DNA of 40,847 nt, taken from a virus. Location of the stretch: the UHGV virus genome UHGV-0390358, one strand, 5' to 3'. The notes beneath the pieces are model-generated. The model did not search any database. It had not been told where the DNA came from and saw only the letters and a list, made by a program, of their open reading frames with translations. How positions within the stretch are numbered: the stretch's first letter is position 1; every line of letters starts with the position of its first letter. Made by a program: the position numbers and the translations under genes. Of the stretch, positions 15,678 to 30,741 are shown one piece after another.

Positions 15678-15713
15678 ATATTTATTATCTGAAATAAATA
15701 TCAGGCAATAGCT

Positions 15714-15944: not shown

Positions 15945-15965
15945 TATCCAGCTACAACCCTCTGT

Positions 15966-15990
15966 AGACCGCCACCCGGCGGTCTTTTCA
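15966..15990 (+). terminator. Rho-independent terminator after Cro-like gene
   Basis: GACCGCC-accc-GGCGGTC followed by TTTTCA. Confidence 0.55.
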
Positions 15991-16092
15991 TATCTATTCG
16001 TACCTCAAAGGTAATAAAAAACCAAATCTGGTTGATCAAATTTTCCAATTGTGCAAAATAGCCAATATCAATAACAAAAAGGGGCGGAAAAA

Positions 16093-17870: not shown

Positions 17871-17987
17871 TACCAGCGCGATAGCGCATTTTTTTACGCC
17901 TCAATAATTACCTATAAGGTAACAAAATATTCTAAGCTCTATTGATTTCGTGTCTTATGTGGTTTTTAATTACCTTAGAGGTAAATC

Positions 17988-18335
17988 ATGAGAAAACAGA
18001 TACAGGCTCTTGGTCGACTCAAAACAGGCCAGATGAACAAAACAGAATCTGCGTATTGCCAGCACCTTGAGCAGCGTAAACGTGCAGGGGAAATCGCCTG
18101 GTATCGATTCGAGGGTATTAAGCTGCGGTTAGCAGACAACACGTTCTATACGCCCGATTTCGCTGTGATGCTCGCCACCGGAGAGATGGAACTGCACGAA
18201 GTGAAAGGGGGATTCTGGACCGACGACGCCAGGGTGAAAACCAAAGTAGCCGCAGATCAGTATCCGTTCCGAATCATCGGGGTAACGGTTAAACCAAAGA
18301 AAGCAGGTGGCGGCTGGAACATCGAAGAGTTCTGA
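17988..18335 (+). CDS. Putative PD-(D/E)XK-type nuclease (possible Holliday-junction resolvase role)
   Basis: 115 aa; motif YTPDF...ELHEVKG; follows replication genes as resolvases do in lambdoid nin regions; operator palindromes immediately upstream. Confidence 0.4.
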   Translation: MRKQIQALGRLKTGQMNKTESAYCQHLEQRKRAGEIAWYRFEGIKLRLADNTFYTPDFAVMLATGEMELHEVKGGFWTDDARVKTKVAADQYPFRIIGVTVKPKKAGGGWNIEEF

Positions 18336-18396
18336 ATCGACGATCTTTTTAGTTATCAATGTAATCAATAAGTTATGTGGATAAGCGAGGGTAAAG

Positions 18397-18957
18397 ATGG
18401 AAAGTAATATCAAAGGGTTAGTTTCCGCCGGGCATGAGATGGCTTCGGAACTGAAAGCAGAATGTGGTGCCGTTGATATGCGCAGTGTGGCAAAGCTGAT
18501 CAGCGATTTGGCAACGCAACTGGAAGTGCAACTGGTGCGTGCTAATGCGCTGGCCGAAGACCACCAGAGAGCGACTGAGTCAATTAAGCAGGCTGATTCG
18601 GCTGTTAAGTTGGCGCACGAGAAGTTTTCGGTGCTGGCGGCGGAGAATGAGCTGGCTCGTAAGGCAGTTCAGGCATTCTGCGATGTTGTTGGCGACAACA
18701 CCGAGGTTATCGCTGAGGTGGTTGGGCGAGATGGCGTTCTGGTTATTTTGGAGGCCATGAAGGCAACAGGAAATATGCCAGCCACCGATGCTTTCCTGGC
18801 TGAAGTCCGGGCGCAGGGGGTGGATATGGCTCGTAACGCGATGATTGATTTTGTTGATGGTGAAGTTGGGCCAAACAAGAACGTTCCGGGGCTGATTAGA
18901 GGCGCAGAGATATGCGTAAGTATTGCTGAACAGCTTCGCAAAGGAGGCAACCAGTGA
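18397..18957 (+). CDS. Hypothetical protein
   Basis: 186 aa ORF with start overlapped to neighbours; unassigned. Confidence 0.45.
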   Translation: MESNIKGLVSAGHEMASELKAECGAVDMRSVAKLISDLATQLEVQLVRANALAEDHQRATESIKQADSAVKLAHEKFSVLAAENELARKAVQAFCDVVGDNTEVIAEVVGRDGVLVILEAMKATGNMPATDAFLAEVRAQGVDMARNAMIDFVDGEVGPNKNVPGLIRGAEICVSIAEQLRKGGNQ

Positions 18958-19490
18958 GCGAAATTAATTACCAGGCACTGCGTGAGGCGGCGGAACGTGC
19001 AATTCCGGCAATGGAACGCCTGTTAATGTTGCCAGTTGATGATGATCTGATAAGTGAACAGGAACTTAAAGATTACGGTGTGGATATTGATGCGCTCAAC
19101 GCCTTCAAATTTCTGGCCGGACCAGAAACCGTGCTGGCGCTTCTGGATGAACGGGAAAGAAACCAGCAATACATCAAACGCCGCGACCAGGAGAACGAGG
19201 AGATTGCGCTAACGGTAGGGAAGCTGCGCGTTGAGCTTGAAGCAGCAAAATCAAAACTCAACGAGCAGCGCGAGTATTACGAGGGAGTTATCTCTGATGG
19301 GTGCAAGCGTATTGCTGAACTGGAAGCGCGGGAAGTTCAATTACCGACTCGCTACGACCTTCGATATGGACACCCGATAAATGCAGATGAGCGACAAGTC
19401 ATGATACCTAAAGAAAATGGCAGTTGGCTTTACCTGATTGACCTAGAACACGCATTACGCGTCGCTGACATTCGCATCAAAGGAGAGTGA
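18954..19490 (+). CDS. Ead/Ea22-like protein
   Basis: N-terminal MSEINYQALREAAERA... resembles lambdoid Ead/Ea22-like N-termini; coiled-coil middle. Confidence 0.45.
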   Translation: MSEINYQALREAAERAIPAMERLLMLPVDDDLISEQELKDYGVDIDALNAFKFLAGPETVLALLDERERNQQYIKRRDQENEEIALTVGKLRVELEAAKSKLNEQREYYEGVISDGCKRIAELEAREVQLPTRYDLRYGHPINADERQVMIPKENGSWLYLIDLEHALRVADIRIKGE

Positions 19491-19491
19491 T

Positions 19492-20670
19492 ATGACCACT
19501 TTTACCGACAAAGAACTGATTAAAGAAATCAAAGAGCGCATCAGCAGCCTGGACGTGCGAGACAATATTGAGCGCCGTGCTTATGAAATTGCTCTGGCAT
19601 CGCTGGAAGCAGAACCGGTGGCGTGGGAATGCGGTGAAAACATAATTTTGTTTAACCCTGACACAGTTGAAGCATACGCAAAACGTGCGGAGATAACACC
19701 TAAGCCACTATTCTCCGCGCCGCCAGCGCCGATGGCTGCGCCGGAGAAATGCCCGGCAGAAATTCGAGAGCTGATGTCGTCGCATTCTGACGATCTCTTC
19801 AACGATGAAGACGCTCAGGAGATTTGGAACACCTGCCGCGCCGCTATGCTTCAGTCCGGAAACTTTCGGGAAAACAAGAATTCGTCAACCAATAATTTTC
19901 GAGAAATCGCGGAAACGTCAACCAACTATCCGGCAATTCCTAGTGAGGTGTTGTCCGCAATCCTGAAGGTTGCCAGGATTCGTGCCGATTTCGATGATTT
20001 TGACGGTGACAGGCGAGGTATCGGTGATTGTCTGGATGAGGCTGAGCAAGAGCTTATCGTTACCATTAACAAATATGCCAGTCAGTTGGCAGTAGTACCT
20101 GTTGGGCTTGATGAACGTGCAGCTTTCAATGCCTGGAATAACGACGAGAACCTCCCCATAGCTGGTGTTGGCGCAAAAAACGCTGCCTGGTTAGCCTGGC
20201 AAGCCCGCGCTGAGTTGGGTCGCTCGTTAGCCGTAAACTCTCCGGTAATTCCGGATGGTTTATCCACGGTATGCGCTGAGGCTTATCAGGTTGTAGGAGT
20301 TATGGCAGATGCGCTTGGTGTATTCGGTGATGCAGCAGTACAGAAAGTTCTGGATAACCTGTCACAGCAAAAACTTGTTCACAGAGATGTGCTGCCGTTC
20401 TCGCTTCCGGTAACTCCGGATGGTTGGGTTATAGTGCCGAAGAAACTAACCGCTGAGAACGGCGCTAAGGGTGTGCTATCCGGTGAATTTTCAGAAACTA
20501 CGTTTATAAGCTGCCCGGAATGCTTTGGCGATGATGATTGCGATACCTGTGACGGGAGCGGACGAATTGAAATTAAAGTACCAGTCACGTGGACGACCAT
20601 AAAATCCATCTGGGATAAAGGTATTGCGCATTTTGCAGCAAAACCGCCGCAGGAGGTTAACCGTGGCTAA
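19492..20670 (+). CDS. Hypothetical protein with C-terminal DnaJ-type CxxCxGxG zinc-finger motif
   Basis: 392 aa; C-terminal CPECFGDDDCDTCDGSG. Confidence 0.45.
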   Translation: MTTFTDKELIKEIKERISSLDVRDNIERRAYEIALASLEAEPVAWECGENIILFNPDTVEAYAKRAEITPKPLFSAPPAPMAAPEKCPAEIRELMSSHSDDLFNDEDAQEIWNTCRAAMLQSGNFRENKNSSTNNFREIAETSTNYPAIPSEVLSAILKVARIRADFDDFDGDRRGIGDCLDEAEQELIVTINKYASQLAVVPVGLDERAAFNAWNNDENLPIAGVGAKNAAWLAWQARAELGRSLAVNSPVIPDGLSTVCAEAYQVVGVMADALGVFGDAAVQKVLDNLSQQKLVHRDVLPFSLPVTPDGWVIVPKKLTAENGAKGVLSGEFSETTFISCPECFGDDDCDTCDGSGRIEIKVPVTWTTIKSIWDKGIAHFAAKPPQEVNRG

Positions 20671-20944
20671 CCTGCAACTTGCCGTCAAAGGTGAATACTT
20701 CGATGCCATGATTCGCGGGGAGAAAACGGAAGAGTATCGCCTGTGTAATGACTACTGGAAAAAGCGCCTCGTTAACCGTAAGCATGACCGCCTGATTATC
20801 ACAAAGGGATATCCGAAGCGCGACGATTCCAGCCGCAGAATAGACGTCCCGTATGAAGGGTATGAAATCAAGACAATCACACATCCGCACTTCGGCGATA
20901 AACCGGTAAAGGTGTTCGCGATAAAGGTAAATATTGATGGCTAA
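20663..20944 (+). CDS. Small protein, possibly ASCH/PUA-like fold
   Basis: GTG start overlapping previous stop; ...YFDAMIRGEKTEEYRL...; weak assignment. Confidence 0.35.
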   Translation: MANLQLAVKGEYFDAMIRGEKTEEYRLCNDYWKKRLVNRKHDRLIITKGYPKRDDSSRRIDVPYEGYEIKTITHPHFGDKPVKVFAIKVNIDG

Positions 20945-21275
20945 ATCAGCAGCAGAGCGCAAAGCCGCTCAGAGAGCCAGACAAGCTGCATCTGGTGTGC
21001 GTAAACTGGAGATTGTGCTTGATGCTCAGGAAATTGAAATGCTGGAGCGTAACTGTGCCACGCGTCGCCCCGGGCGTGCGCCTTACGAATTTGGTGAGTA
21101 TATAGCGTTACTGATCCGCCAGGATGATGCACGCGTGCGCGGGCGTATAAAATCGATCAGCAGAAAACGTTGCGGTAAGTGCGGCGAGAGAGTTCCAGTT
21201 AATTCATGCCCGTGTAATGGTGACTCGCAATGCTGGGTGACTAAAGGCTGGCATGAAACGAAATTAATAGTGTGA
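20937..21275 (+). CDS. Hypothetical protein with C-terminal Cys cluster
   Basis: ATG at 20937; C-terminal CGKCGERVPVNSCPCNGDSQC; stop lies inside the GTGACATGTCAC palindrome. Confidence 0.4.
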   Translation: MAKSAAERKAAQRARQAASGVRKLEIVLDAQEIEMLERNCATRRPGRAPYEFGEYIALLIRQDDARVRGRIKSISRKRCGKCGERVPVNSCPCNGDSQCWVTKGWHETKLIV

Positions 21276-21323
21276 CATGTCACGAGTAGATTATGCATGA
21301 TGAATTTGATGGTTTTGAATACT

Positions 21324-21349
21324 GCCGCCAACTATGGCGGCTTTATTTT
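21324..21349 (+). terminator. Rho-independent terminator between early-right genes and terminase operon
   Basis: GCCGCC-aactat-GGCGGC followed by TTTATTTT. Confidence 0.5.
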
Positions 21350-21392
21350 GCATGGTACTATTACCACAACGGTAACTATTACCACGGTGGTT

Positions 21393-21989
21393 ATGATGCC
21401 TGCTGAACCTAAAACCTATAAACGCAAATCAACGCAATTTAAGCCACTAACAGCAATGCAGGAGGCTTATTGCCAGTCATACATCAAAACGCCTGAAAAC
21501 CAGACTCAGGCAGCGATTAATGCAGGATTCTCCCCAAATACAGCGGCAGTTAAAGCCAGTGTCATGATGCGCGATGAACGCATTCAAAAACGGATTGCCG
21601 AGTTGATGGAGGAGCGCAACAAACGAATGCGCGTCAGTGCTGATTACGTTCTCATGCGCCTGGTGGAGATCGACCAGATGGACGTGATCGACATCCTCAA
21701 CGACGATGGGAGCCTTAAACCAATCCGTGAGTGGCCGAAAATCTGGCGCACTACGCTTAGTGGCTTTGATCTGTCATCGATCATCATGAACATGAACGAG
21801 GATTCGATAGAGACAATCCTCAAAAAAATTAAATGGCCTGACAAGGTGAAGAACCTTGAGCTGATTGGTAAGCATGTTGATGTCAACGCGTTCAAAGAAC
21901 GTCTGGATGTTAATGTGAATGTGACAATTGCTGATCGCATAGCAGCAGCCAGGAAGCGACTCAAAGAACGTCAGGATGGTAATCAGTGA
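21393..21989 (+). CDS. Terminase small subunit
   Basis: HTH-like ...QAAINAGFSPNTAAVKASVMMRDERIQKRIAEL; immediately upstream of and overlapping TerL; start taken at internal ATG 21393. Confidence 0.6.
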   Translation: MMPAEPKTYKRKSTQFKPLTAMQEAYCQSYIKTPENQTQAAINAGFSPNTAAVKASVMMRDERIQKRIAELMEERNKRMRVSADYVLMRLVEIDQMDVIDILNDDGSLKPIREWPKIWRTTLSGFDLSSIIMNMNEDSIETILKKIKWPDKVKNLELIGKHVDVNAFKERLDVNVNVTIADRIAAARKRLKERQDGNQ

Positions 21990-23455
21990 CAGATACATCG
22001 TTATCTCCTGAAGAGCAGTTGATCGAGGATATTGCAGGGTTCACTCACGATCCGCTTGGCTATGCCCTCTATGCGTTCCCGTGGGGGGAAGAGGGGACTG
22101 AACTGGCACATGCCACCGGCCCACGTCAATGGCAGGCTGATGCGTTCCGAGAGATACGTGATCACCTGCAGAATCCAGAGACGCGCTATCAGCCGCTTAT
22201 GCTGGCACGCGCTTCTGGTCACGGTATTGGTAAATCCGCATTTATCTCAATGCTGATCAACTGGGGCATGTCCACTTGCGAGGATTGTAAGGTCGTGGTG
22301 ACCGCCAACACCGACAACCAGCTACGAACGAAGACCTGGCCGGAAATTATCAAGTGGTCGAACCTTGCTATCACGAAAGACTGGTTTACCTGTACCGCTA
22401 CCGCGATGTACAGCAATGACCCTGGGCACGACAAGCGGTGGCGAGCTGACGCAATCCCTTGGTCTGAGCACAACACTGAGGCATTCGCCGGACTACACAA
22501 CGAGCGCAAACGCATCATCGTGGTATTCGATGAAGCGTCGAACATTGCGGATCTGGTGTGGGAAGTTGCCGAGGGTGCGCTAACGGACGAAGACACTGAG
22601 ATTATCTGGGTGGCGTTCGGAAACCCGACGCGTAATACCGGACGTTTCCGCGAATGTTTCCGCAAATATAAACACCGCTGGAAAACTGCGCAGATTGACA
22701 GCCGGACGGTGGAAGGCACCAACAAACAGCAGTTGCAGAAATGGGTTGATGACTACGGGGAAGACAGCGACTTCGTTAAAATCCGTGTGCGTGGAATATT
22801 CCCTGATGCATCTGAATTGCAGTTTATCCCTACCGGTCTTACTGACGAGGCAATGAAACGGGTGGTAACCGCTGCGCAGGTTGCACATGCTCCGGTGATA
22901 ATTGGCGTTGACCCGGCATACTCCGGCGTTGATGACGCTGTGATATACCTGCGGCAGGGGCTACACAGTAAGGTGCTGTGGACTGGCAACAAGACCACTG
23001 ACGATCTGATAATGGCGAAGCGTATCGCTGACTTTGAAGACCAGTACCAGGCTGACGCAGTGTTCATCGACTTCGGTTACGGAACTGGTCTGAAGTCAAT
23101 CGGTGACGGCTGGGGTCGTACATGGCAACTTGTTCCGTTTGGTGGCGCGTCTACTGACCCGCAGATGCTCAACAAGCGTGGGGAGATGTTCAACTCATGC
23201 AAGACATGGCTGAGGCTGGGCGGCATGCTTGATGACCAGGAAACAGCGGACGACCTGTCGGCGGCAGAGTACAAAGTTCGAGTGGACGGTAAAATCGTTA
23301 TCGAACCGAAGGAAGATATCAAGGAGCGGCTTGGGCGTTCTCCTGGTAAAGGCGATGCGCTACTGCTGACGTTTGCGTTCCCGGTAGCCAAGAAAACTAA
23401 TGACCCACGGCAGCAGCAGGGCAGGGCTATAACAGACTATGACCCATTTGAATGA
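21986..23455 (+). CDS. Terminase large subunit
   Basis: GTG start overlapping TerS stop; Walker A-like ARASGHGIGKSAF and Walker B-like IIVVFDEAS; 489 aa. Confidence 0.85.
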   Translation: MTDTSLSPEEQLIEDIAGFTHDPLGYALYAFPWGEEGTELAHATGPRQWQADAFREIRDHLQNPETRYQPLMLARASGHGIGKSAFISMLINWGMSTCEDCKVVVTANTDNQLRTKTWPEIIKWSNLAITKDWFTCTATAMYSNDPGHDKRWRADAIPWSEHNTEAFAGLHNERKRIIVVFDEASNIADLVWEVAEGALTDEDTEIIWVAFGNPTRNTGRFRECFRKYKHRWKTAQIDSRTVEGTNKQQLQKWVDDYGEDSDFVKIRVRGIFPDASELQFIPTGLTDEAMKRVVTAAQVAHAPVIIGVDPAYSGVDDAVIYLRQGLHSKVLWTGNKTTDDLIMAKRIADFEDQYQADAVFIDFGYGTGLKSIGDGWGRTWQLVPFGGASTDPQMLNKRGEMFNSCKTWLRLGGMLDDQETADDLSAAEYKVRVDGKIVIEPKEDIKERLGRSPGKGDALLLTFAFPVAKKTNDPRQQQGRAITDYDPFE

Positions 23456-23458
23456 TTT

Positions 23459-24283
23459 TTACTTTTGTGTTTTTGATTTTCTTTGATAGGTGGAATTTAA
23501 ATCACCATTTATATTTACTAGAGGATTATTCAATAATGTACTGATTTCTGGATTGTTAATTCCAGTAACGCCAAGTTTCTTTACGGACTCATTAAAGTCT
23601 TGTAATGATTTTAGACCTACAAGCCCATTAGCAATTGTATTATTTGTTGCCAAAGGAATGTTTTTCTTATAGGACTCATATTCGTTTTTTAAATTTTTGT
23701 GAGTTTTTTCTAGATTTTCTAGTTTAGATGTTGTTTCATCAATAACCTTAGATAATTCTAAAATACGAGCTTGTGCTGCGCGCAGTTCTGTCTCCCTCTC
23801 TTTCAATTCAGATGTGAGTTGTCCCATTCTGTCTTTTGAAAGAATTATTTCCTCTTTCATGTCTTGAATGTTTTTTTCAGCGCCTGTTTTTACTTTTTCG
23901 TAAGTAATGTCTTTTTTAGCCAGCAATCTCTGTAGCCGTGTTTCACGTTGTATTTTTCTTGCCTTCCGGTGGTTTTCGATTGAGTCATTATTATCAAGAG
24001 GTTTTGCTTGCCATACGTTAATGATATTGTTTACCCATGGTAATAGGCAGCAGATAGTAATTACAGATAAGCATGGATAAAACATAACAGTTTTCCATGT
24101 GCTGTTATCTGAGATGTATGAAATTTTATCTATTATATTTGATTTGCTAAAAAACAGATAAAGAAGTGATTTCCAGTTGAAGGCGCACCAGGACATAACA
24201 AAAGCACCAAGCACAGGGTTTTTAGCTCGATGCACGGCAGTATTGGCAGTAGATAAAAACAGCTCTTTGAACGATTCGAACAT
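23459..24283 (-). CDS. AT-rich accessory protein: N-terminal membrane segments + long coiled-coil; unknown function
   Basis: Opposite strand to flanking late genes; AT-rich composition unlike neighbours; consensus TATAAT -10 at 24309-24314 overlapping an operator palindrome; in-frame alternative starts at 24307 and 24337. Confidence 0.5.
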   Translation of the reverse strand: MFESFKELFLSTANTAVHRAKNPVLGAFVMSWCAFNWKSLLYLFFSKSNIIDKISYISDNSTWKTVMFYPCLSVITICCLLPWVNNIINVWQAKPLDNNDSIENHRKARKIQRETRLQRLLAKKDITYEKVKTGAEKNIQDMKEEIILSKDRMGQLTSELKERETELRAAQARILELSKVIDETTSKLENLEKTHKNLKNEYESYKKNIPLATNNTIANGLVGLKSLQDFNESVKKLGVTGINNPEISTLLNNPLVNINGDLNSTYQRKSKTQK

Positions 24284-24342
24284 ACTAATTACCTTAAAGT
24301 TTTTCATGATTATACCTTTAAGGTAATTTGTGGTCATCAGGC

Positions 24343-24367
24343 AAAAAAAATGCCCGGCGAACCGGGC
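24343..24367 (-). terminator. Rho-independent terminator downstream of the tRNA
   Basis: Minus strand GCCCGG-ttcg-CCGGGC followed by a run of 8 T. Confidence 0.45.
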
Positions 24368-24530
24368 GAACTGGAAGCAATGAGTTATGCCTTCCGTGGC
24401 TGTACGGGTTTACAGCATGAAGTCATCGCAATGGCGTCCTGCTGTAAAAAGGGCGGTGATAGGCCTTCAAGGGAAACCATCACCGCCAAGCCCCTGGAAC
24501 TTCTGGCATCACGGTCCTCAGGCGTGATTC

Positions 24531-24607
24531 TGGCGTGGCATGCAGGATTCGAACCTGCGACCAACCGCTTAGAAGGCGGTTGCTCTGTCCAACTGAGCTA
24601 ATGCCAC
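24531..24607 (-). tRNA. tRNA-Arg (anticodon UCU)
   Basis: Reverse complement folds as a 77-nt cloverleaf: 7-bp acceptor stem GTGGCAT/ATGCCAC, D-arm GCTC..GAGC, anticodon loop CTTCTAA, T-arm GCAGG-TTCGAAT-CCTGC, 3' CCA; differs from E. coli argU in the acceptor stem. Confidence 0.9.
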
Positions 24608-25034
24608 AACGCTGAGAGCACTTAGCCTGTTAAGGCGCCACACTTTGTCTCGGCTCCATAAATGCTCTCATCGTTGTACCCTCGTCTCTTCCGAGGCGTC
24701 ACACCGAATCGCCGGGATGGTGAATCCCCGTGCGCGGAATAAAACCGCTCGACTTGCACATTCCGGCTACCTGGTTCGTTTGCCCGAGCAAGGGAGGGTG
24801 CCCCTTAAACGTATCCAGACCGCTATCGGCGCATGTGCCATACGCCGTACTGCTCAAAATAAAAGCTCACTCCACCTGTTCAATTTAACGACAAGCCAGT
24901 CAGGTTAGTAACCGGAATGAACTCTTTGGTTACCTGAAAGGTAATAATTTGTGCGTTAAATGTCAACTATCTACGATAAATAAATCATATGTGGTTAAAT
25001 TGGTAATAATTTAATTGCGTACGGAGTCATTGAT

Positions 25035-25241
25035 ATGTGCATGGGTAGCTCACCATCAGTGCCTGCAACACCAGAAGTTCAGGCAGCACCACAGGAGCAG
25101 GATGCCGCCGTTGTTGATGCCCGCGACGAAGAAACACGTCGCCGTCGCGCTGCTGCTGGTCGTAGTTCTACGCTGCTTACCGGTTCTCAGGGCGACACAT
25201 CAACCGCTAATACCAGCGGTAAAACGCTGCTTGGTCAGTAA
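25035..25241 (+). CDS. Small low-complexity virion protein (T7 gp7.3-like composition)
   Basis: GGAG ribosome-binding site; 68 aa, Ala/Arg/Ser/Thr-rich; immediately upstream of portal. Confidence 0.45.
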   Translation: MCMGSSPSVPATPEVQAAPQEQDAAVVDARDEETRRRRAAAGRSSTLLTGSQGDTSTANTSGKTLLGQ

Positions 25242-25255
25242 CCGGAGTCATTGAA

Positions 25256-26935
25256 ATGGCGGAAACAACTAAAGAGCGATTGAACAAACAGTTCGCACAA
25301 CTTGAAAGCGAGCGTCAGTCGTTCGAGCCGCACTGGCGCGAGTTGAGTGATTACATCAACCCGCGTGGTTCCCGCTTTCTGACTTCTGAGGTTAACCGTA
25401 ACGATCGACGCAATACACGCATTATTGATTCGACCGGGACTATGGCGGCGCGCACTCTTGCCAGCGGCATGATGTCAGGCATAACAAGCCCCGCCCGTCC
25501 GTGGTTTCGCCTGGCTACGCCAGATCCTGAAATGATGGATTATGGCCCTGTTAAGTTGTGGCTTGAGGCGGTGCAGAACCGCATGAACGATATGTTCAAT
25601 AAGTCGAATCTCTATCAGTCGCTGCCGCAGTTATACGGAAGCCTCGGCACATACAGCACTGGTGCAATGGCAGTGCTGGAGGATGACGAGGACATCATTC
25701 GCACAATGCCATTCCCGATAGGCAGTTACTACCTGGCTAACTCACCTCGTGGCAGTGTGGACACCTGTTTTCGCAAGTTCTCTATGACTGTTCGTCAGCT
25801 TGTTCAGGAGTTCGGGCTAAATAACGTCAGCGAATCCGTAAAAAGCATGTGGGAAAGCGGCACCTACGAGAAGTGGATTGAAGTGATGCATTCGGTTTAC
25901 CCGAACATTGACCGCGATACATCGAAGCTGGATAGCAAGAACAAGCCATTCAAATCGGTTTATTACGAGGTTGGTGGCGATAACGACAAGTTGTTGCGTG
26001 AGTCCGGATTCGATGAGTTTCCAATTATGGCTCCGCGCTGGGAAGTTAACGGCGAAGATGTTTATGGATCATCATGCCCGGGTATGCTGGCGCTTGGACC
26101 TGTTAAGGCATTGCAGCTTCTCCAGAAGCGCAAGTCGCAGTTGATTGATAAAGCCACCAATCCGCCGATGGTTGCTCCGACTTCCCTCAAGAATCAGCGT
26201 GCCTCCCTTCTTCCTGGCGACATCACGTATATCGATCAGATTACTGGTCAGGATGGTTTCAGGCCTGCTTATCTGGTTAACCCCAGTACAGCAGATTTGG
26301 TGGCAGACATTCAGGACACTCGTCAAATCATTAACAGCGCCTACTTTGTCGATCTGTTCATGATGTTGCAGAACATCAATACCCGCTCGATGCCTGTTGA
26401 AGCGGTGATCGAAATGAAAGAAGAAAAACTTCTGATGTTGGGGCCGGTTCTGGAGCGTCTGAACGACGAATGTCTTAATCCTCTCATTGACCGCTCTTTC
26501 TCGATGATGGTGCGTAAAAACATGCTGCCGCCACCGCCAGACGTGATGGAAGGTATGCCCCTGAAGGTCGAATACATTTCCGTCATGGCTCAGGCGCAGA
26601 AGTCTATCGGCCTGTCCAGTCTGGCGTCCACGGTTAACTTCATTGGTCAACTTGCGCAAGCGAAACCAGAAGCTCTCGACAAACTCAACGTTGATCAGGC
26701 GATCGATGCATTCGCTGATATGTCCGGAGTGTCTCCAACCGTCATTGTTCCGCAGGAACAGGTTGAGCAGGCTCGCCAGCAACGGGCACAGCAACAACAG
26801 CAGCAACAAATGATGGCGATGGGGATGGCGGCGGCACAGGGTGCCAAGACGCTAAGCGAAGCTAAAACTTCGGATCCGAGTGTTTTGTCAGCTATGGCGA
26901 ATGCAGTTAGTGGTCAGGGTGGGCAATCACAATGA
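25256..26935 (+). CDS. Portal (head-to-tail connector) protein, T7 gp8-like
   Basis: 559 aa; position after terminase; Gln/Met/Ala-rich C-terminus QQQQQQMMAMGMAAAQG as in T7-type portals. Confidence 0.8.
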   Translation: MAETTKERLNKQFAQLESERQSFEPHWRELSDYINPRGSRFLTSEVNRNDRRNTRIIDSTGTMAARTLASGMMSGITSPARPWFRLATPDPEMMDYGPVKLWLEAVQNRMNDMFNKSNLYQSLPQLYGSLGTYSTGAMAVLEDDEDIIRTMPFPIGSYYLANSPRGSVDTCFRKFSMTVRQLVQEFGLNNVSESVKSMWESGTYEKWIEVMHSVYPNIDRDTSKLDSKNKPFKSVYYEVGGDNDKLLRESGFDEFPIMAPRWEVNGEDVYGSSCPGMLALGPVKALQLLQKRKSQLIDKATNPPMVAPTSLKNQRASLLPGDITYIDQITGQDGFRPAYLVNPSTADLVADIQDTRQIINSAYFVDLFMMLQNINTRSMPVEAVIEMKEEKLLMLGPVLERLNDECLNPLIDRSFSMMVRKNMLPPPPDVMEGMPLKVEYISVMAQAQKSIGLSSLASTVNFIGQLAQAKPEALDKLNVDQAIDAFADMSGVSPTVIVPQEQVEQARQQRAQQQQQQQMMAMGMAAAQGAKTLSEAKTSDPSVLSAMANAVSGQGGQSQ

Positions 26936-27228
26936 CAGATTACGAAGATGATCAACTGAAAGAAGAAAACGCCCGTAAGCAACGTGACATGGCACAGCGT
27001 GAAATTGATGACATTCGCTTTGTCATGAGCAGTGAACAGGGGCGTCGCGTTGTCTGGTCGGTGCTGGAGAAAGGCCGTGTGTTTTCCGCTATCTCACCGA
27101 TGGACGCTATGGCAATGGCATTTAATGAGGGGCAACGCAATCTGGCGCTGGAACTGTTTCAGCGCGTTATGGCGCATTGCCCTGAACAGTATTTGAAGAT
27201 GGCCAAAGAGGCCAGTGAACAGGAGTGA
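26932..27228 (+). CDS. Hypothetical protein (98 aa) between portal and scaffold
   Basis: ATG overlaps portal stop; unassigned. Confidence 0.4.
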   Translation: MTDYEDDQLKEENARKQRDMAQREIDDIRFVMSSEQGRRVVWSVLEKGRVFSAISPMDAMAMAFNEGQRNLALELFQRVMAHCPEQYLKMAKEASEQE

Positions 27229-27230
27229 TC

Positions 27231-27926
27231 ATGAATTTATTTGAGCGTTTGATGTATCGCCGTCTTTGCAATGAGCAACCAGTCGATGGTGGAGCAGCTC
27301 CGGCTGCGTCAGAACCGTCAGCGCCTGCAGGTGATAACCCTGCTCCAGTTGGTGATCCATCACAACAGGAAGGTGATAAGCCACAACCTGTTGCTGATGG
27401 CGATAAACCTGCTGATGACAAAAAGCCTGAAAACGATAAGCAGGATGAAAAAAAGGACGGCGATAAACCAGAGGGGGCGCCTGAAAAGTACGAGTTTCAG
27501 GCTGCCGAAGGCGTAGAGCTGGATACAGAAGCGTTGAAGGAATTCGAGCCGGTGGCGCGAGAACTAAACCTGACCAACGAGCAAGCGCAAAAGCTGGTTG
27601 ATGCTTATCCGAAGATTCTGGCAGGTGTGCAGCAGCGCCAGGAAGAAGCCTGGCAGAAAACAACCGAGCAGTGGGCTGCTGATGTAAAAGCTGACAAAGA
27701 AATCGGTGGCGACAAGTTGATTTCTAACCTTAGCGCCGCACAGCGTGCGCTTGAACAGTTCGGGACACCCGAGCTCAAAGAATATCTGAACACCACCGGA
27801 CTGGGTAATCACCCTGATCTGGTCAAAACGTTCGTGAAAATCGGAAAGGCGATGTCTGAAGATGGCATGGTCACCGGTGGTAATGAAGGCCAGCGTAGTG
27901 CGGCCGAAGTGCTCTATGGCAAATAA
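27231..27926 (+). CDS. Scaffolding protein
   Basis: AGGAG ribosome-binding site; acidic, low-complexity Pro/Asp/Lys-rich N-terminus and helical C-terminus; directly upstream of major capsid gene. Confidence 0.6.
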   Translation: MNLFERLMYRRLCNEQPVDGGAAPAASEPSAPAGDNPAPVGDPSQQEGDKPQPVADGDKPADDKKPENDKQDEKKDGDKPEGAPEKYEFQAAEGVELDTEALKEFEPVARELNLTNEQAQKLVDAYPKILAGVQQRQEEAWQKTTEQWAADVKADKEIGGDKLISNLSAAQRALEQFGTPELKEYLNTTGLGNHPDLVKTFVKIGKAMSEDGMVTGGNEGQRSAAEVLYGK

Positions 27927-27940
27927 GAGAGGAAATGACA

Positions 27941-28927
27941 ATGGCTGTTAAAGGCTTAATTGCGCTGACGCTGGCAGACTGGGGTAAGCGCGTCGATCCT
28001 AATGGGAAAATCGATAAAATTACCGAACTTCTCAGTCAAACGAATCCGATTCTGGAAGACATGCTGATTGTTGAAGGCAACCTTCCAACCGGACACCGCA
28101 CCACCATTCGTTCTGGTTTACCTTCAGCTACCTGGCGTTTGCTGAACTATGGCGTACAGCCAAGCAAATCAACCACAGTGCAGGTAACCGATTCCGTGGG
28201 CATGCTGGAAACCTATGCTGAAGTCGATAAGTCACTGGCTGATCTGAACGGCAATACCGCCGAATTCCGCCTGTCTGAAGACCGCGCATTTATTGAAGCG
28301 ATGAATCAGCAGATGGCGCAGACGCTGTTTTATGGTGATTCCAGCGTTAACCCTCAGCAGTTTATGGGACTGTCCTCCCGCTATTCCAGCCTGTCTGCGG
28401 GTAATGCTCAGAACATCATTGATGCTGGTGGCACGGGTACAGATAACACCTCAATCTGGTTAGTGGTGTGGGGCGAAAACACCGTGCATGGCATCTTCCC
28501 GAAAGGGCAGAAGGCTGGCATCCAGATGGAAGATAAAGGCCAGGTGACACTGGAAGATGCTAATGGCGGCAAGTACGAAGGCTATCGCACCCATTACAAA
28601 TGGGATAACGGACTTGCTCTGCGTGACTGGCGTTATGTTGTTCGCATTGCAAACATCGATGTCAGCAATCTTTCAGAACCATCCTCTGCCGCAAATATTG
28701 CGAAGTTGATGGTTAAAGCACTACATCGCATTCCAAACCGTGGCATGGGCCGCCCGGTGTTCTACATGAACCGCACTGTAGGCCAGGCTCTTGATCTGCA
28801 GTCTCTGGAGAAAACATCTCTGGCTATCAGCGTAAAAGAGACAGAAGGCGAGTGGTGGACTTCATTCCGTGGTGTACCAATCCGTGAAACTGATGCGCTT
28901 CTGGAAACAGAAGCCCGCGTGGTGTAA
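27941..28927 (+). CDS. Major capsid protein
   Basis: About 329 aa following scaffold, GAGAGG ribosome-binding site; position and size; alternative start at 27935. Confidence 0.7.
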   Translation: MAVKGLIALTLADWGKRVDPNGKIDKITELLSQTNPILEDMLIVEGNLPTGHRTTIRSGLPSATWRLLNYGVQPSKSTTVQVTDSVGMLETYAEVDKSLADLNGNTAEFRLSEDRAFIEAMNQQMAQTLFYGDSSVNPQQFMGLSSRYSSLSAGNAQNIIDAGGTGTDNTSIWLVVWGENTVHGIFPKGQKAGIQMEDKGQVTLEDANGGKYEGYRTHYKWDNGLALRDWRYVVRIANIDVSNLSEPSSAANIAKLMVKALHRIPNRGMGRPVFYMNRTVGQALDLQSLEKTSLAISVKETEGEWWTSFRGVPIRETDALLETEARVV

Positions 28928-28978
28928 CGCCTGTTATTAACCTGTGGGTCGTAACAGACCCACTAATGGAGAAAGAAG

Positions 28979-29416
28979 ATGATCACCGACAAACTGTTGA
29001 TGTTCTCCGAAGCTCAGGCGGTTACGAATACCGCGGCTTCTACTGACGTAATCGATCTCGGTCCAATTGACGGAAAACGTCGTGATATCGGCGTGGGTTA
29101 CCCGCTTGAGTTTTGGGCGCTGGTTAACACAGCCGCCGCAGCAAGCGGTGATGCAACTGTAAACATCCAGTTGCAGACGAGTGAGAATAACAGCTCATGG
29201 ACCACTATTTATGATAGTGGCGCACTGGCAAAGACCGCCCTGACAGCAGGTAAACGAGTTGTTTCTGCAAAGGTGCCTGCCGGTGTTCAGCGATATCTGC
29301 GTGTTAACTACTCCGTCGCAACTGGCCCACTAACGGCTGGCGAATTCACTGCTGGTATCAGTCTTGATGTTGATGCCAATACGCCGTATCCGATCCGCTC
29401 AAAAGTAACTGGTTAA
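28979..29416 (+). CDS. Hypothetical virion protein (possible capsid decoration or head-tail protein)
   Basis: Ribosome-binding site GGAGAAAG; 145 aa; follows a strong hairpin after the capsid gene. Confidence 0.4.
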   Translation: MITDKLLMFSEAQAVTNTAASTDVIDLGPIDGKRRDIGVGYPLEFWALVNTAAAASGDATVNIQLQTSENNSSWTTIYDSGALAKTALTAGKRVVSAKVPAGVQRYLRVNYSVATGPLTAGEFTAGISLDVDANTPYPIRSKVTG

Positions 29417-29426
29417 GGTGATATCG

Positions 29427-29762
29427 ATGTCAGGTGAGAAACCAAGATACCGCGTTCTGCGCCTCTCTCATATCCATAACACTCTGTGGCCGGAGGGGGC
29501 AGAAATCGAATACGAAGGTGAGCCTGGTAGCGCACTGGAACCTGTTAACGATGCAGCCAGACAGGCAAAAGCAAAAGTTGCAGGAAAGGTGTCAATGGCA
29601 GCAACCAGCACCAAAATCATCAACGACGTGTCAGATGATGGTGAACTGGATAAGCTCCGTGAAGAGTACGAATTGCTCTTTAACGAGAAGCCACACCATA
29701 ACGCCAAAGCCGAAACGCTCCGCGAGAAGATCGCAGATAAGCGTAAAGAACTGGGCGTGTAA
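29427..29762 (+). CDS. Hypothetical structural-module protein
   Basis: ATG at 29427 after AAGG; 111 aa. Confidence 0.4.
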   Translation: MSGEKPRYRVLRLSHIHNTLWPEGAEIEYEGEPGSALEPVNDAARQAKAKVAGKVSMAATSTKIINDVSDDGELDKLREEYELLFNEKPHHNAKAETLREKIADKRKELGV

Positions 29763-29779
29763 GCCTCGCGGATCAGACA

Positions 29780-29800
29780 AGGGGCTTCGGCCCCTTTATT
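29780..29800 (+). terminator. Rho-independent terminator within structural module
   Basis: AGGGGC-ttcg-GCCCCT followed by TTATT. Confidence 0.5.
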
Positions 29801-29812
29801 GCAGGAGTGTAT

Positions 29813-30136
29813 ATGGAACTCGTAAACCTCAAAACCGGCACTGACAGCTACCAGGATGAGAGCGGAGAAACCAGAACTCGCGATGAATACCCGTGGGGGC
29901 TGTGCATCACTCTTAATAACGACACATTGAATAAGCTGAAGGCGCAACCTCAGGGCGTCGGAACAGAAGTGATGATAACTGCAAAGGCTGTTATTCGAGG
30001 CCTGTCTGCCAGAGAAACTGACGATGGTGTTAATCGCAGCGCCGATCTGCAGATCACTGATATGGCGATCGCTCCTGTTTCCGGGGATGTAGAAAAATCA
30101 GCGGCTGAAACTCTGTACGGTAACGGAGGTGAGTGA
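29813..30136 (+). CDS. Hypothetical structural-module protein
   Basis: AGGAG ribosome-binding site 5 nt upstream of ATG 29813. Confidence 0.4.
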   Translation: MELVNLKTGTDSYQDESGETRTRDEYPWGLCITLNNDTLNKLKAQPQGVGTEVMITAKAVIRGLSARETDDGVNRSADLQITDMAIAPVSGDVEKSAAETLYGNGGE

Positions 30137-30741
30137 TGGCCTCTGTAGTAGAGATCTGTAATCGTGCGCTGTCCAATATTGGCAACAGCCGCAGCATTAA
30201 CAGCCTGACGGAAGCCAGCAAGGAAGCGGGGGAATGTTCGCTGCACTTTGAGGCCTGCCGTGATGCTGTGCTTTCTGATTTTGACTGGAACTTTGCTACC
30301 AAACGCGTGGCGCTTGCAGATACGAGCAATCCACCGCCTGACTGGGAATATGCGTACCAGTACCCGTCAGATTGTCTGCGCATTACTGAAATTATGCTTC
30401 CTGGTGTACGCAATCCAACAGCAGCAATGCGCGTTCAGTACGAAGTTGGTGCAGACACCAACGGAACAGGAAAGTTGATCTACACAGACCAGCCTCAGGC
30501 ATGGCTCAAGTATGTCTCTCGCGTTACAGATGTGAACATGTTTGATGCCATTTTTATGGAGGCGCTGGCCTGGCGTCTTGCGGCAGCTATTAACATGGCG
30601 CTGACTGGGAATGCAGACCTCGGTACGTTTGCCCTCAATATGTACAATCGCGTGATTCTTAGTGCTGGCTCGCATAGCCAGAATGAATCACAGGAACCAC
30701 AGCCACCGGTTGATGAGTTTACCATTGCGAGGTTGTCCTGA
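30136..30741 (+). CDS. Head-tail adaptor / tail tubular protein A (T7 gp11-like)
   Basis: About 201 aa; N-terminal ...VEICNRALSNIG... resembles gp11-type adaptor N-termini; immediately upstream of the gp12-like gene. Confidence 0.5.
   Translation: MASVVEICNRALSNIGNSRSINSLTEASKEAGECSLHFEACRDAVLSDFDWNFATKRVALADTSNPPPDWEYAYQYPSDCLRITEIMLPGVRNPTAAMRVQYEVGADTNGTGKLIYTDQPQAWLKYVSRVTDVNMFDAIFMEALAWRLAAAINMALTGNADLGTFALNMYNRVILSAGSHSQNESQEPQPPVDEFTIARLS

What the first reader, a model, noticed from the sequence alone, without database searches (positions are those of the whole stretch)
24531..24607. Phage-borne tRNA-Arg(UCU), not a host integration site
The cloverleaf is complete with anticodon UCU, but the acceptor stem differs from what I recall of E. 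coli argU, and both flanks are phage genes, so this is not an attB-containing host tRNA. AGA/AGG are rare codons in enterobacteria, so a phage copy may support late or accessory gene translation.
Basis: partly seen in the sequence, partly recalled or inferred. Interest (0 to 1): 0.4.

Follow-up and report, generated by a model that had tools for sequence, protein, structure and literature searches.

The report
Phage tRNA-Arg embedded in structured RNA
The tRNA-Arg(UCU) gene is real, phage-borne and already annotated in sister phages, but it sits as an exchangeable module inside a conserved, apparently undescribed structured RNA that many temperate phages place right after an early promoter.

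Summary
Observation confirmed: ARAGORN and Rfam both call a 77-nt tRNA-Arg(UCU) at 24531-24607 (minus). The window is a complete, permuted phiV10-like (Uetakevirus) genome. attP lies at 9437-9453 beside the integrase, 15 kb away, so the tRNA is not an attachment site. It is 64/77 identical to K-12 argU: all loops are identical and the stem differences are compensatory. The tRNA is already annotated in near-identical phages, so on its own it is ordinary. AGA/AGG codons are 3-7x enriched over a host sample, mostly in tailspike and accessory genes. tRNA-less relatives are equally enriched, so codon supply is plausible but not compelling.

The new part is the context. The tRNA abuts a ~180-nt pseudoknotted RNA core (24853-24675) with strong covariation and no Rfam match. 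I found it in 103 phage records, more than 120 IMG/VR contigs and about 12 enterobacterial genera, usually about 50 nt behind a promoter overlapped by palindromes I read as operators. Downstream of the core is a slot that holds tRNA-Arg, a tRNA-shaped module, or nothing. A conserved trailer with two terminators follows, then an accessory gene (sometimes Tad2-like) that can only be reached by read-through. The core's function (antitermination or processing scaffold) is inferred, not shown.

The parts
24930..24966 (-). Promoter-like site: TTGACA (24966-24961), 17-nt spacer, TACCTT (24943-24938). It is overlapped by the palindrome TTACCTTTCAGGTAA (24944-24930), which I read as a repressor operator.
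   Evidence: The sequence is shown. The palindrome family gives 29 strand-matches against 0.27 expected. The same TTGACA-N17-TACCTT plus palindrome arrangement is conserved in E. coli, Salmonella, Klebsiella, Enterobacter and Erwinia copies. Promoter and operator function are both inferred.
24854..24929 (-). Variable 5' leader between the promoter and the conserved core.
   Evidence: Conservation is low outside close relatives. In 46 copies with a good promoter match, the distance from the -10 end to the core has a median of 54 nt.
24675..24853 (-). Conserved structured RNA core: hairpin P1, P2a/P2b with a variable apical hairpin, the invariant stretch GGUAGCCGGAAUGUGCAAG, a variable hairpin, hairpin P4 whose loop (CACC) pairs with a downstream GGUG to form a pseudoknot, and hairpin CCUCG-GAAGAGA-CGAGG (24696-24680).
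   Evidence: nhmmer places it at 24853-24675, E 1.2e-37, and it is the only copy in the window. On 39 non-redundant copies, 96.4% of cells are paired against 30-43% in slid controls; 13 of 29 pairs show double changes against 0-5 when slid; 0 of 500 shuffles reach the observed covariation. No Rfam family matches at E<=5. It is not coding.
24607..24676 (-). Long closing hairpin CAACGAUGAGAGCAUU...AAGUGCUCUCAGCGUUG with a hypervariable apical insert. Its last base pair uses tRNA nucleotide +1.
   Evidence: It appears as inverted repeat I2, 19-nt arms, 89% complementary. The stem is conserved with compensatory changes, and the insert varies from 30 to 150 nt across copies.
24531..24607 (-). tRNA-Arg(UCU), 77 nt, CCA encoded. 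It occupies the exchangeable 'slot' of the unit.
   Evidence: Called. It is 64/77 identical to argU, with all loops identical and compensatory stem changes. Among 28 element-linked copies there are 8 sequence variants, and the acceptor-stem changes keep pairing. In other copies the slot holds a cloverleaf-like module, or nothing.
24508..24528 (-). Conserved hairpin AUCACG-CCUGAGGAC-CGUGAU immediately 3' of the slot.
   Evidence: It is present after the slot both in tRNA-bearing copies and in at least 25 copies with a tRNA-like module or an empty slot.
24446..24487 (-). Terminator-like hairpin t1: GGCGGUGAUGG...CCUAUCACCGCC followed by CUUUUUA.
   Evidence: The stem covaries across hosts (GAUGG/CUAUC, GGCAG/CUGACC, ACCAG/CUGGU). 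The equivalent hairpin plus U-tract ends the unit in mEp460. Terminator activity is inferred.
24343..24367 (-). Intrinsic terminator t2: GCCCGG-UUCG-CCGGGC followed by A and eight U.
   Evidence: Found by the terminator scan. The stem covaries (GCCCGG/CCGGGC against GCCCAC/GUGGGC). It also marks the boundary beyond which phiV10-type phages differ in cargo.
24312..24326 (.). Second copy of the palindrome (ATACCTTTAAGGTAA), between t2 and the cargo start codon.
   Evidence: Its role is unknown.
23459..24307 (-). Variable accessory ('cargo') gene, 282 aa, GC 0.33, 5 of 11 Arg codons are AGR; unknown function (phrog_4780).
   Evidence: RefSeq CDS in the identical prophage. There is no Pfam family and only weak coiled-coil-type PADLOC hits; PHROG assignment is. 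Other copies carry Tad2-like, Gp49/66-family, HNH or unknown genes at this position.

Best explanation
This is an intact, almost certainly functional, phage-encoded argU-type tRNA-Arg(UCU). It is not transcribed as a lone gene. It is the middle module of a roughly 590-nt minus-strand early transcription unit that sits between the large-terminase and portal genes. The unit runs as follows: a sigma-70-type promoter overlapped by the phage's recurrent palindrome (probably the repressor operator); a short leader; a conserved pseudoknotted RNA core; a long closing hairpin that ends at tRNA position +1; the tRNA; a conserved trailer with two terminator hairpins; and a variable accessory gene. Host RNase P and 3'-end processing enzymes would cut the tRNA out. 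That would also free the upstream core RNA (inferred). The mature tRNA would add AGA (and some AGG) decoding capacity for the AGR-rich tailspike, tail and low-GC accessory genes once the repressor is lifted. The tRNA is optional cargo in a tRNA-shaped slot. Sister phages carry a tRNA-like module there, and one lineage has deleted core and slot altogether. Shown here: the tRNA and its integrity, its phage location away from attP, the AGR enrichment, the conserved structured RNA, the modular slot, and the layout of terminators followed by cargo. Inferred: co-transcription, operator control, processing, decoding benefit, and what the core RNA does.
For: tRNA calls. Comparison with argU: all loops, the D stem and the T arm are identical (including A20, C35, U36, G73 and CCA), and the 3+3 acceptor-stem and 2+2 anticodon-stem differences are compensatory. 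The 8 variants in 28 copies change stems only to G-U wobble pairs. Phage context and attP elsewhere. AGR enrichment (Fisher p about 2e-9 and 9e-10), concentrated in the tailspike (24 of 58 Arg codons), tail and accessory genes. Structured core. Promoter-proximal position: 46 of 83 distinct upstream regions score >=9/12 against 7 of 83 shuffled. Palindrome family. Slot alternatives and the shared downstream hairpin. Conserved, covarying trailer and terminators. The cargo start codon lies 11-16 nt after t2 in 22 of 30 copies, so any transcript reaching it must pass t2.
Against: There are no expression data: the transcription start, the 3' ends, processing and aminoacylation are all untested. The -10 element (TACCTT) is weak, and the sigma-70 scan did not call this promoter. 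tRNA-less relatives (Tyrion, PAT1, an epsilon15-type phage) use AGA/AGG just as much, so the tRNA is not needed to sustain that codon usage. The most highly expressed late genes (portal to capsid) contain 0 AGA and 1 AGG in about 1360 codons. The host baseline is a single 50-kb K-12 region rich in ribosomal-protein genes, which exaggerates the contrast.
Confidence: 0.65

Rival explanations
1. The tRNA's main role is structural. It acts as an RNase P / 3'-processing 'punctuation mark' that releases or shapes the neighbouring core RNA and separates it from the trailer. Decoding would be a secondary benefit.
For: In tRNA-less copies the same slot holds cloverleaf-like modules with an acceptor-like closing stem but without canonical D/T loops or CCA. 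The core's closing hairpin ends exactly at tRNA +1, and the first four tRNA bases (GUGG) belong to a motif (CGUUGUGG) that is conserved even where there is no tRNA. In P1/P7-like phages a tRNA(CAU) sits 14-17 nt 5' of the core instead.
Against: The tRNA keeps every feature needed for charging and decoding, including the encoded CCA, A20 and an anticodon loop identical to argU. A pure processing signal would not need these. Stenotrophomonas-phage copies have an empty slot, so punctuation is not obligatory. This rival is not exclusive of the best explanation.
Confidence: 0.3
2. The tRNA is a counter-defence device. It would be an early-expressed spare tRNA-Arg that replaces or outnumbers host tRNA-Arg(UCU) when this is depleted or cleaved by a host or competitor tRNA-targeting nuclease.
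For: It sits in an early unit that is probably repressor-controlled, and the cargo position of that unit holds Tad2-like anti-Thoeris genes in some phages (PF11195, E 3e-24 and 4e-26). Codon usage does not distinguish carriers from non-carriers. The stems differ from host argU. Published work on phage tRNAs that counter anticodon nucleases gives precedent (my own knowledge, not checked here).
Against: The anticodon loop and stem-loop geometry are identical to host argU, so a nuclease specific for the anticodon loop should cut it equally. I found no defence system here that targets tRNA-Arg(UCU). The cargo in this window has no defence or anti-defence assignment.
Confidence: 0.15
3. The tRNA is, or contains, an attachment site: either the phage's own attP or an attB for a satellite or integrative element.
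For: Many integrases target tRNA genes, and argU itself is the DLP12 attachment site in K-12.
Against: The gene is full length. The published attP core lies at 9437-9453, 190 bp from the integrase. The identical prophage sits next to guaA. No integrase or foreign DNA adjoins the tRNA. The flanks are conserved in more than 25 independent phage copies.
Confidence: 0.02
4. The tRNA is a decaying passenger, captured from a host and no longer functional.
For: It is dispensable: sister phages lack it.
Against: It scores 73 bits against the Rfam tRNA model. The cloverleaf has no mismatches. Divergence from argU is compensatory, and the variants among 28 copies from E. coli, Salmonella and Klebsiella phages preserve pairing.
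Confidence: 0.04

Closest known systems
E. coli argU (dnaY) tRNA-Arg(UCU)
   Same: Same anticodon, and identical D loop (except position 20a), anticodon loop, T arm, D stem, discriminator G73 and CCA. Overall 64/77 identical.
   Different: The acceptor stem differs at 3 pairs, the anticodon stem at 2 pairs and the variable loop at 2 bases. The gene is phage-encoded, embedded in a non-coding unit, and is not an attachment site, whereas argU is the DLP12 attachment site.
tRNA-Arg(UCU) genes of other phages, e.g. argO in the ileZ-argN-argO cluster of Stx phages (933W/VT2-Sakai), and those of T4-like, Felix-O1-like and cyanophages
   Same: These are phage-borne rare-codon tRNAs. BLAST finds many annotated tRNA-Arg genes at 80-91% identity over 55-70 nt. 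The classical interpretation is codon supplementation (my own knowledge).
   Different: In Stx phages the tRNAs lie in the late region upstream of stx (my own knowledge). Here the tRNA is in an early, minus-strand unit, fused to a structured RNA. The sequence is only 82.5% identical to VT2-Sakai argO over 57 nt.
HK022 put RNAs (cis-acting processive antiterminators)
   Same: Both are RNA elements placed just downstream of an early, repressor-controlled promoter in temperate phages that appear to lack an N protein, with terminators downstream that must be read through.
   Different: put is about 70 nt with two stem-loops and is present twice per genome, as putL and putR (PMC9378689). This core is about 165-180 nt, has five or more helices and a pseudoknot, occurs once per genome and shows no sequence similarity to put. 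Antitermination is untested.
GOLLD / ROOL large ornate RNAs
   Same: They are structured non-coding RNAs of unknown function, found in phages and prophages, often next to tRNA genes (PMC12286853; the tRNA adjacency is from my own knowledge).
   Different: There is no Rfam match. This RNA is much smaller. It occurs in Enterobacterales and Xanthomonadales phages, not in Firmicutes or rumen sources. It sits at a defined promoter-proximal position and is followed by terminators and cargo.
tRNA-linked or RNase P-processed regulatory RNAs (P4 CI RNA and P1/P7 C4 RNA; tRNA-spacer sRNAs such as 3'ETS-leuZ)
   Same: In these, a non-coding RNA has ends defined by the tRNA-processing machinery, in temperate-phage regulatory regions (my own knowledge). 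A C4/isrK pair is present elsewhere in this window.
   Different: The structure and sequence are different, and processing of this element is only inferred.

Membership tests
Bacterial elongator tRNA (Rfam RF00005) | A cloverleaf that scores above the family gathering threshold, with 7-bp acceptor, D, anticodon and T arms. | tested here: met
   73.3 bits against a gathering score of 29, over the full model 1-71. ARAGORN also calls it.
tRNA-Arg(UCU), argU type | Anticodon UCU in a 7-nt loop with U33 and A37. | tested here: met
   The loop is CUUCUAA, identical to argU. ARAGORN places anticodon tct at position 35.
tRNA-Arg(UCU), argU type | E. coli ArgRS identity elements A20, C35 and U/G36, plus G/A73 (the list is from my own knowledge of the literature). 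| tested here: met
   The D loop is AGUUGGACA with A20 retained; C35, U36 and G73 are present. Actual charging is not testable with these tools.
tRNA-Arg(UCU), argU type | The tRNA is aminoacylated and used in translation. | not testable with these tools
   This needs acid-gel Northern blots or tRNA-seq during infection.
tRNA-embedded phage attachment site (attP/attB) | Identity between the phage and host tRNA 3' segments, an adjacent integrase, and a host-DNA junction at the tRNA. | tested here: not met
   The attP core is at 9437-9453 beside the integrase at 9644-10894. attB is the 3' end of guaA. The tRNA is flanked by terminase and portal genes. It is only 83% identical to argU.
HK022 put antiterminator RNA | About 70 nt, two stem-loops, with copies downstream of both PL and PR. 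| tested here: not met
   The core is 157-188 nt with six helices. There is a single copy per genome.
HK022 put antiterminator RNA | A promoter-proximal position in an early operon, with terminators downstream. | tested here: met
HK022 put antiterminator RNA | Confers terminator read-through on RNA polymerase in cis without protein factors. | not testable with these tools
   This needs in vitro transcription or reporter fusions.
Any Rfam 15 family (for the core RNA) | A covariance-model match. | tested here: not met
   Nothing overlaps the conserved core (24853-24675) at E<=5 in the window; one chance-level hit (ceN46, 14.4 bits against a gathering score of 50) spans the adjacent leader and grazes the first ~50 nt of the nhmmer envelope. 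Nothing overlaps the core at E<=0.5 in six other loci. Gathering-threshold hits in the window are only C4, isrK and tRNA.
RprA sRNA (for the 3' tail) | An Rfam RF00034 match at the gathering score. | tested here: not met
   The window tail gives no RprA hit. The tail of the Stenotrophomonas-phage copy scores 50.2 bits, below the gathering score of 70, with E 0.001.

The most novel reading that the evidence does not exclude
The ~180-nt pseudoknotted core next to the tRNA is an undescribed class of phage regulatory RNA. It would be a promoter-proximal leader that makes early transcripts read through the terminators that follow it (an RNA-only processive antiterminator, larger than and unrelated to HK022 put) and/or that serves as a processing scaffold. 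Its built-in 'tRNA-shaped' slot can be filled by a real tRNA, a tRNA mimic or an sRNA-like tail. It would then control early accessory and anti-defence genes in phiV10/epsilon15-like, lambdoid (including Stx2c and cdt phages) and P1/P7-like phages.
Probability: 0.3. Interest if true: 0.8.

Novelty: new variant of a known kind. Interest (0 to 1): 0.45.

Why it matters
The tRNA alone matters little. It is a known kind of gene, already annotated in sister phages. The main practical value is correcting reference records: phiV10 RefSeq lacks the tRNA feature and annotates an ORF across it.

The context matters more. A strongly covarying structured RNA with no Rfam family appears in well-studied phage groups (P1/P7, Stx2c- and cdt-converting lambdoids, phiV10/epsilon15 relatives). 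It sits at the very start of transcripts from promoters overlapped by operator-like palindromes, upstream of terminators and of accessory genes that include Tad2-like anti-defence proteins.

If it modifies transcription or RNA processing, it would be a new RNA-based layer of early phage gene control. It would also explain how N-less lambdoid phages read through early terminators. The interchangeable slot that holds either a tRNA or a tRNA mimic suggests one route by which temperate phages acquire and express tRNAs.

Tried and rejected
- **Host attB / attP reading.** Rejected.
- **Protein-coding reading of the region upstream of the tRNA.** The ORFs there look like junk. No frame is open in more than 14 of 39 copies, and indel lengths are not multiples of three.
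- **Rfam identity for the core.** None found at relaxed thresholds.
- **Exact-sequence literature search.** The invariant 19-mer and its 14-mer gave only unrelated C. elegans primer hits.
- **Pas sRNAs (2026 preprint).** They lie in the late/lysis region and are unrelated.
- **HK022 put.** Same position, but different size, structure and copy number.
- **P1 ban-operon literature.** Nothing relevant in the held library.
- **Second copy of the core in the window (a putR analogue).** None found.
- **K-12 CPS-53 as a characterised homologue.** The element is absent there.
- **Defence or anti-defence assignment for the window's cargo gene.** Only weak coiled-coil-type PADLOC hits and no Pfam family.
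- **Far-offset hairpin matches.** A regular-expression search for the post-slot hairpin gave hits at offsets around 1046-1066 nt in lambdoid copies. I judged these spurious, because that offset falls inside the downstream coding genes.
- **Sigma-70 hit ATGACC-17-TATAAT (24337-24309).** This is unlikely to be the cargo promoter, because its -10 ends 2 nt before the annotated ATG.
- **Not done.** I did not build a covariance model or scan metagenomes. Neither the profile HMM nor exact-word scans can reach distant members of the family.

Full report
**1. The observation.** ARAGORN finds one tRNA in the 40,847-nt window: tRNA-Arg, anticodon tct, at 24531-24607 on the minus strand. Rfam's tRNA model matches 24534-24607 at 73.3 bits (gathering score 29, E 2.5e-14) over its full length. 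The gene is 77 nt and encodes its CCA end.

**2. Where it is.** The window is a complete, circularly permuted phiV10-like podovirus genome (genus Uetakevirus).
- phiV10 positions 19170-36792 align to window 1-19334, and phiV10 positions 1-19169 align to window 21276-40847, at 95-98% identity.
- A 2.2-kb query around the tRNA is 100% identical to a prophage inserted next to guaA in an E. coli chromosome. RefSeq annotates that locus as terminase, hypothetical protein, tRNA-Arg, hypothetical protein, portal.
- The portal assignment is solid (Pfam Head-tail_con, E 2.7e-187).
- The ZX5 paper on a 98-99% identical phage reports one tRNA. It places the attP core (attgagtgggaatgatt) 190 bp upstream of the integrase and attB at the 3' end of guaA (PMC9782041).
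- That core, with one mismatch, is at window 9437-9453, just upstream of the integrase ORF at 9644-10894.

The tRNA is therefore 15 kb from the phage's attachment site and has no host DNA next to it. The integration-site reading is excluded.

**3. The tRNA itself.** Against K-12 argU it is 64/77 identical.
- The D stem, the D loop (except position 20a), the anticodon loop (CUUCUAA), the T arm, the discriminator G73 and CCA are identical.
- The acceptor stem differs at three pairs and the anticodon stem at two pairs. Each change is matched on both strands.
- Two variable-loop bases also differ.
- The ArgRS identity elements I know from the literature (A20, C35, U36, G/A73) are all present.
- Among 28 copies linked to the neighbouring RNA element in E. 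coli, Salmonella and Klebsiella phages there are eight sequence variants. They differ in the D loop, the variable loop and the discriminator, or convert G3-C70 and U2-A71 to G-U wobble pairs.

This is how a tRNA kept under selection behaves, not a decaying passenger.

The gene is already annotated in O157 typing phages 9 and 10, phiv142-3, SPN9TCW, SPC32H/N and a Klebsiella prophage. As a feature it is known. The phiV10 RefSeq record lacks the tRNA and annotates a 252-nt plus-strand CDS (PhiV10p04) across it. This corresponds to window ORF 24350-24601 and is probably spurious.

**4. The codon argument.**
- Using greedily chosen ATG ORFs, the phage uses AGA at 7.70 and AGG at 4.37 per 1000 codons.
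- The annotated genes of a 50-kb K-12 region use them at 2.35 and 0.63 per 1000 (Fisher p about 2e-9 and 9e-10). That host sample is rich in ribosomal-protein genes and so overstates the contrast.
- The AGR codons are unevenly spread. The tailspike has 24 of 58 Arg codons as AGR, and a tail/injection gene has 10 of 41. Several low-GC accessory ORFs are rich in them, including the ORF just downstream of the tRNA (5 of 11).
- The portal-protease-capsid block has 0 AGA and 1 AGG in about 1360 codons.

The control weakens the argument. Uetakeviruses without the tRNA use these codons just as much.

| Phage | tRNA-Arg present | AGA per 1000 | AGG per 1000 |
|---|---|---|---|
| This window | yes | 7.70 | 4.37 |
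| SPN9TCW | yes | 5.79 | 4.30 |
| Tyrion | no | 7.09 | 4.41 |
| PAT1 | no | 6.29 | 4.39 |
| VB_ST_E15 (epsilon15-type) | no | 5.02 | 5.11 |

Codon supply is plausible but not demonstrated, and it is clearly not obligatory.

**5. What lies around the tRNA.** The tRNA sits in about 930 nt that RefSeq leaves free of genes. A distant BLAST showed that the ~240 nt immediately 5' of the tRNA (minus-strand sense) recur without the tRNA in 103 phage records:
- all phiV10-type phages;
- lambdoid phages (cdtI, mEp460, Ayreon, 2H10, twelve Stx2c phages and three Stx2-converting phages);
- P7 and other P1-like phages;
- Salmonella, Klebsiella and Enterobacter podoviruses;
- a Stenotrophomonas phage.

It also occurs at 24 loci in species-representative genomes of about a dozen Enterobacterales genera. 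It is absent from K-12 CPS-53.

The element is not coding. The ORFs over it look like junk, no frame is open in more than 14 of 39 copies, and its variable parts change length by non-multiples of three.

It is a structured RNA. I tested an explicit structure on 39 copies sharing less than 93% identity. The structure has a P1 hairpin, P2a/P2b, a P4 hairpin, a pseudoknot between the P4 loop and a downstream segment, and a P5 hairpin.
- 96.4% of cells are paired, against 30-43% when partners are slid by 1-3 columns.
- 13 of 29 pairs carry double compensatory changes, against 0-5 when slid.
- None of 500 column shuffles reaches the observed covariation score.
- The pseudoknot has one covarying pair (C-G to A-U in three sequences) and only two non-pairing cells, both in one apparently degenerate copy.

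Two limits apply. The copies were selected with the 19-mer, and the structure was partly derived from these same sequences. The invariant helices (P2b) say nothing either way.

No Rfam 15 family matches the conserved core in the window at E<=5, or in six other loci at E<=0.5. The window has a single copy, at 24853-24675. None of my literature searches found it.

**6. The unit is modular and the tRNA is one module.** In the RNA sense, the core is followed by a long hairpin (window 24676-24607). The stem of this hairpin is conserved and covaries, and its apical part varies from 30 to 150 nt. The last base pair of the hairpin uses tRNA nucleotide +1.

What follows differs between copies:
- tRNA-Arg(UCU): 30 of 131 copies.
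- A 95-135-nt module closed by GUUGUGGUG...CACCACAAC. It folds like a cloverleaf, with a D-arm-like hairpin after a 3-nt junction, central arm(s), and a T-arm-like 5-bp hairpin abutting the closing stem.
- Nothing at all, in the Stenotrophomonas-type copies.

After this slot, copies with either content share the hairpin AAUCACG-CCUnAGGAC-CGUGAU (window 24528-24508). In P1/P7-like phages the arrangement differs. A tRNA(CAU), annotated tRNA-Ile, lies 14-17 nt 5' of the core, and ban starts about 100 nt after it, all inside the C1-controlled ban operon.

The first four tRNA bases, GUGG, are part of the motif CGUUGUGG, which is conserved whether or not a tRNA follows. This may explain why the acceptor stem departs from argU. 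That link is my inference.

**7. Signals at the two ends.**

*Upstream.* 46 of 83 distinct upstream regions contain a sigma-70-like promoter matching at least 9 of 12 positions, against 7 of 83 after shuffling. The -10 element ends a median of 54 nt before the core.
- These promoters are overlapped by palindromes that differ between phage groups.
- In lambdoid copies they lie just past the terminator of a CI-like repressor gene, which is the PL position.
- In this window the promoter is TTGACA(24966-24961)-N17-TACCTT, overlapped by TTACCTTTCAGGTAA (24944-24930).
- That palindrome type occurs about 15 times in the genome (29 strand-matches against 0.27 expected). It clusters around the HTH repressor gene at 14975-15559.
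- I infer it is the repressor's operator. The ZX5 paper shows that this repressor shuts off lytic genes but does not define its operator.
- The -10 is weak, and the generic promoter scan did not report this site.

*Downstream.* The ~190 nt after the tRNA are conserved in all tRNA-bearing copies and contain two hairpins, each followed by a U-tract.
- t1 (24487-24446) and t2 (24367-24343) both show compensatory changes between E. coli, Salmonella and Klebsiella phages.
- In 22 of 30 copies the next gene's start codon lies only 11-16 nt after t2, preceded by AAGGUGA. Any transcript reaching that gene must read through t2.
- That gene is a rotating cargo: two kinds of Tad2-like (Thoeris anti-defence 2) protein, the N4 Gp49/Sf6 gp66 family, an HNH endonuclease and several unknowns.
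- In this window the cargo is a 282-aa protein of unknown function (phrog_4780) and low GC, and a second palindrome copy sits between t2 and its start codon.
- Sequence similarity to phiV10-type phages with a different cargo begins at about window 24344-24345, the downstream edge of t2's U-tract.

**8. Dispensability.** An epsilon15-type genome keeps the promoter/palindrome, the leader, P1, the start of P2, t2 and a cargo gene. It has lost everything from the P2 apical loop to the t1 loop. The junction lies in a motif (UCCCUUGAUGCU) that both loops share in SPN9TCW-type copies. So the core and the slot are not essential for viability in that lineage.

**9. Interpretation.**

Well supported:
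- a functional-looking, phage-borne argU-type tRNA;
- it is not an attachment site;
- AGR-rich tail and accessory genes;
- a conserved, structured RNA, absent from Rfam, that directly abuts the tRNA;
- a modular slot;
- the layout of terminators followed by cargo.

Inferred:
- the whole unit is one early, repressor-controlled transcript;
- RNase P and 3'-processing enzymes release the tRNA and thereby the core;
- the tRNA helps decode AGA/AGG.

The function of the core is open. Three observations resemble HK022 put: the promoter-proximal position, the obligatory read-through of terminators, and the absence of an obvious N gene in the lambdoid carriers. But put is a 70-nt two-stem RNA present twice per genome, so this would be a different class. 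The alternatives are a binding site for a phage antiterminator protein, a processing or stability scaffold, or an independent regulatory RNA. Some copies end in an RprA-like tail (50 bits, below the gathering score).

**10. Verdict.** As stated, the finding is ordinary and already annotated in relatives. The added value is the composite architecture: a real tRNA occupying the tRNA-shaped slot of a widespread, apparently undescribed phage leader RNA. I rate the tRNA itself as already known and the arrangement as a new variant of a known kind. I give 0.3 probability that the core is a new RNA-based antitermination or processing device.

Noticed in passing
window 1744, 2778, 2871, 3992, 9587, 14841, 14903, 15615, 15663, 16000, 17908, 17970, 24312, 24930 (15-bp sites): A palindrome TTACCTnnnAGGTAA recurs about 15 times (29 strand-matches at <=2 mismatches against 0.27 expected). 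The sites lie mostly between the ORFs and cluster around the HTH repressor gene (14975-15559). It is probably the repressor operator set; two copies bracket the tRNA unit. I found no paper that defines it.
   Followed up: partly
window 2560-2646 (-) and 2665-2741 (-): Rfam finds a C4 antisense RNA (79.5 bits) and an isrK RNA (74.7 bits) upstream of or overlapping the BRO-N anti-repressor ORF (1825-2664). This looks like a P1/P7 immI-like c4-ant module. The same pair occurs in mEp460 and an Stx2c phage near their copies of the RNA element.
   Followed up: no
L010:1855-1974 (-) (Stenotrophomonas phage BUCT709); also L014, L015, L077, L097: In some copies the 3' tail of the unit resembles the sRNA RprA (full-length model match, 50.2 bits, E 0.001, below the gathering score of 70). 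These copies share the motif UGCUGUGUGUAGUCUUKGC followed by a terminator. This suggests an Hfq-type sRNA module can occupy the 3' end.
   Followed up: partly
L094, L105, L009 (first ORF after terminator t2): The cargo gene directly after the unit's second terminator is a Tad2-like (Thoeris anti-defence 2, PF11195) protein in several phages (E 3e-24 and 4e-26). Others carry the Phage_gp49_66 family, HNH or unknown proteins. This position appears to be an early accessory/anti-defence hot spot.
   Followed up: partly
L162 (NC_007804.2 phiV10) 707-958 (+) = window 24350-24601 (+): The phiV10 RefSeq record has no tRNA feature. It annotates a hypothetical protein (PhiV10p04) antisense across the tRNA and its trailer, which is probably a spurious ORF. 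TL-2011b also shows only hypothetical proteins there.
   Followed up: yes
L159:2700-3200 (-) (Salmonella phage VB_ST_E15): The epsilon15-type genome carries an internal deletion of the unit, from the P2 apical loop to the t1 loop. The junction lies in a motif (UCCCUUGAUGCU) shared by the two loops in SPN9TCW-type copies. The recurring UCCCUUG loop motif may itself be functional.
   Followed up: partly
L100:2020-2370 (-), L104:3513-3790 (+), L006:2383-2684 (-): Some hypervariable inserts in the apical part of the long closing hairpin contain T-arm-like sequences (GGTTCGATTCC). This hints at tRNA-derived fragments in a second position of the unit.
   Followed up: no
L016 slot module (101 nt; sequence folded): One tRNA-like slot module folds into a near-perfect cloverleaf with a long variable arm and a 7-nt 'anticodon' loop UUUUAAU, but it lacks canonical D/T loops and CCA. 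I cannot tell whether it is a tRNA mimic or a degenerate tRNA.
   Followed up: no
window 9437-9453 (+): The attP core differs by one base (ATCGAGTGGGAATGATT) from the sequence published for phiV10, epsilon15 and ZX5 (ATTGAGTGGGAATGATT).
   Followed up: no
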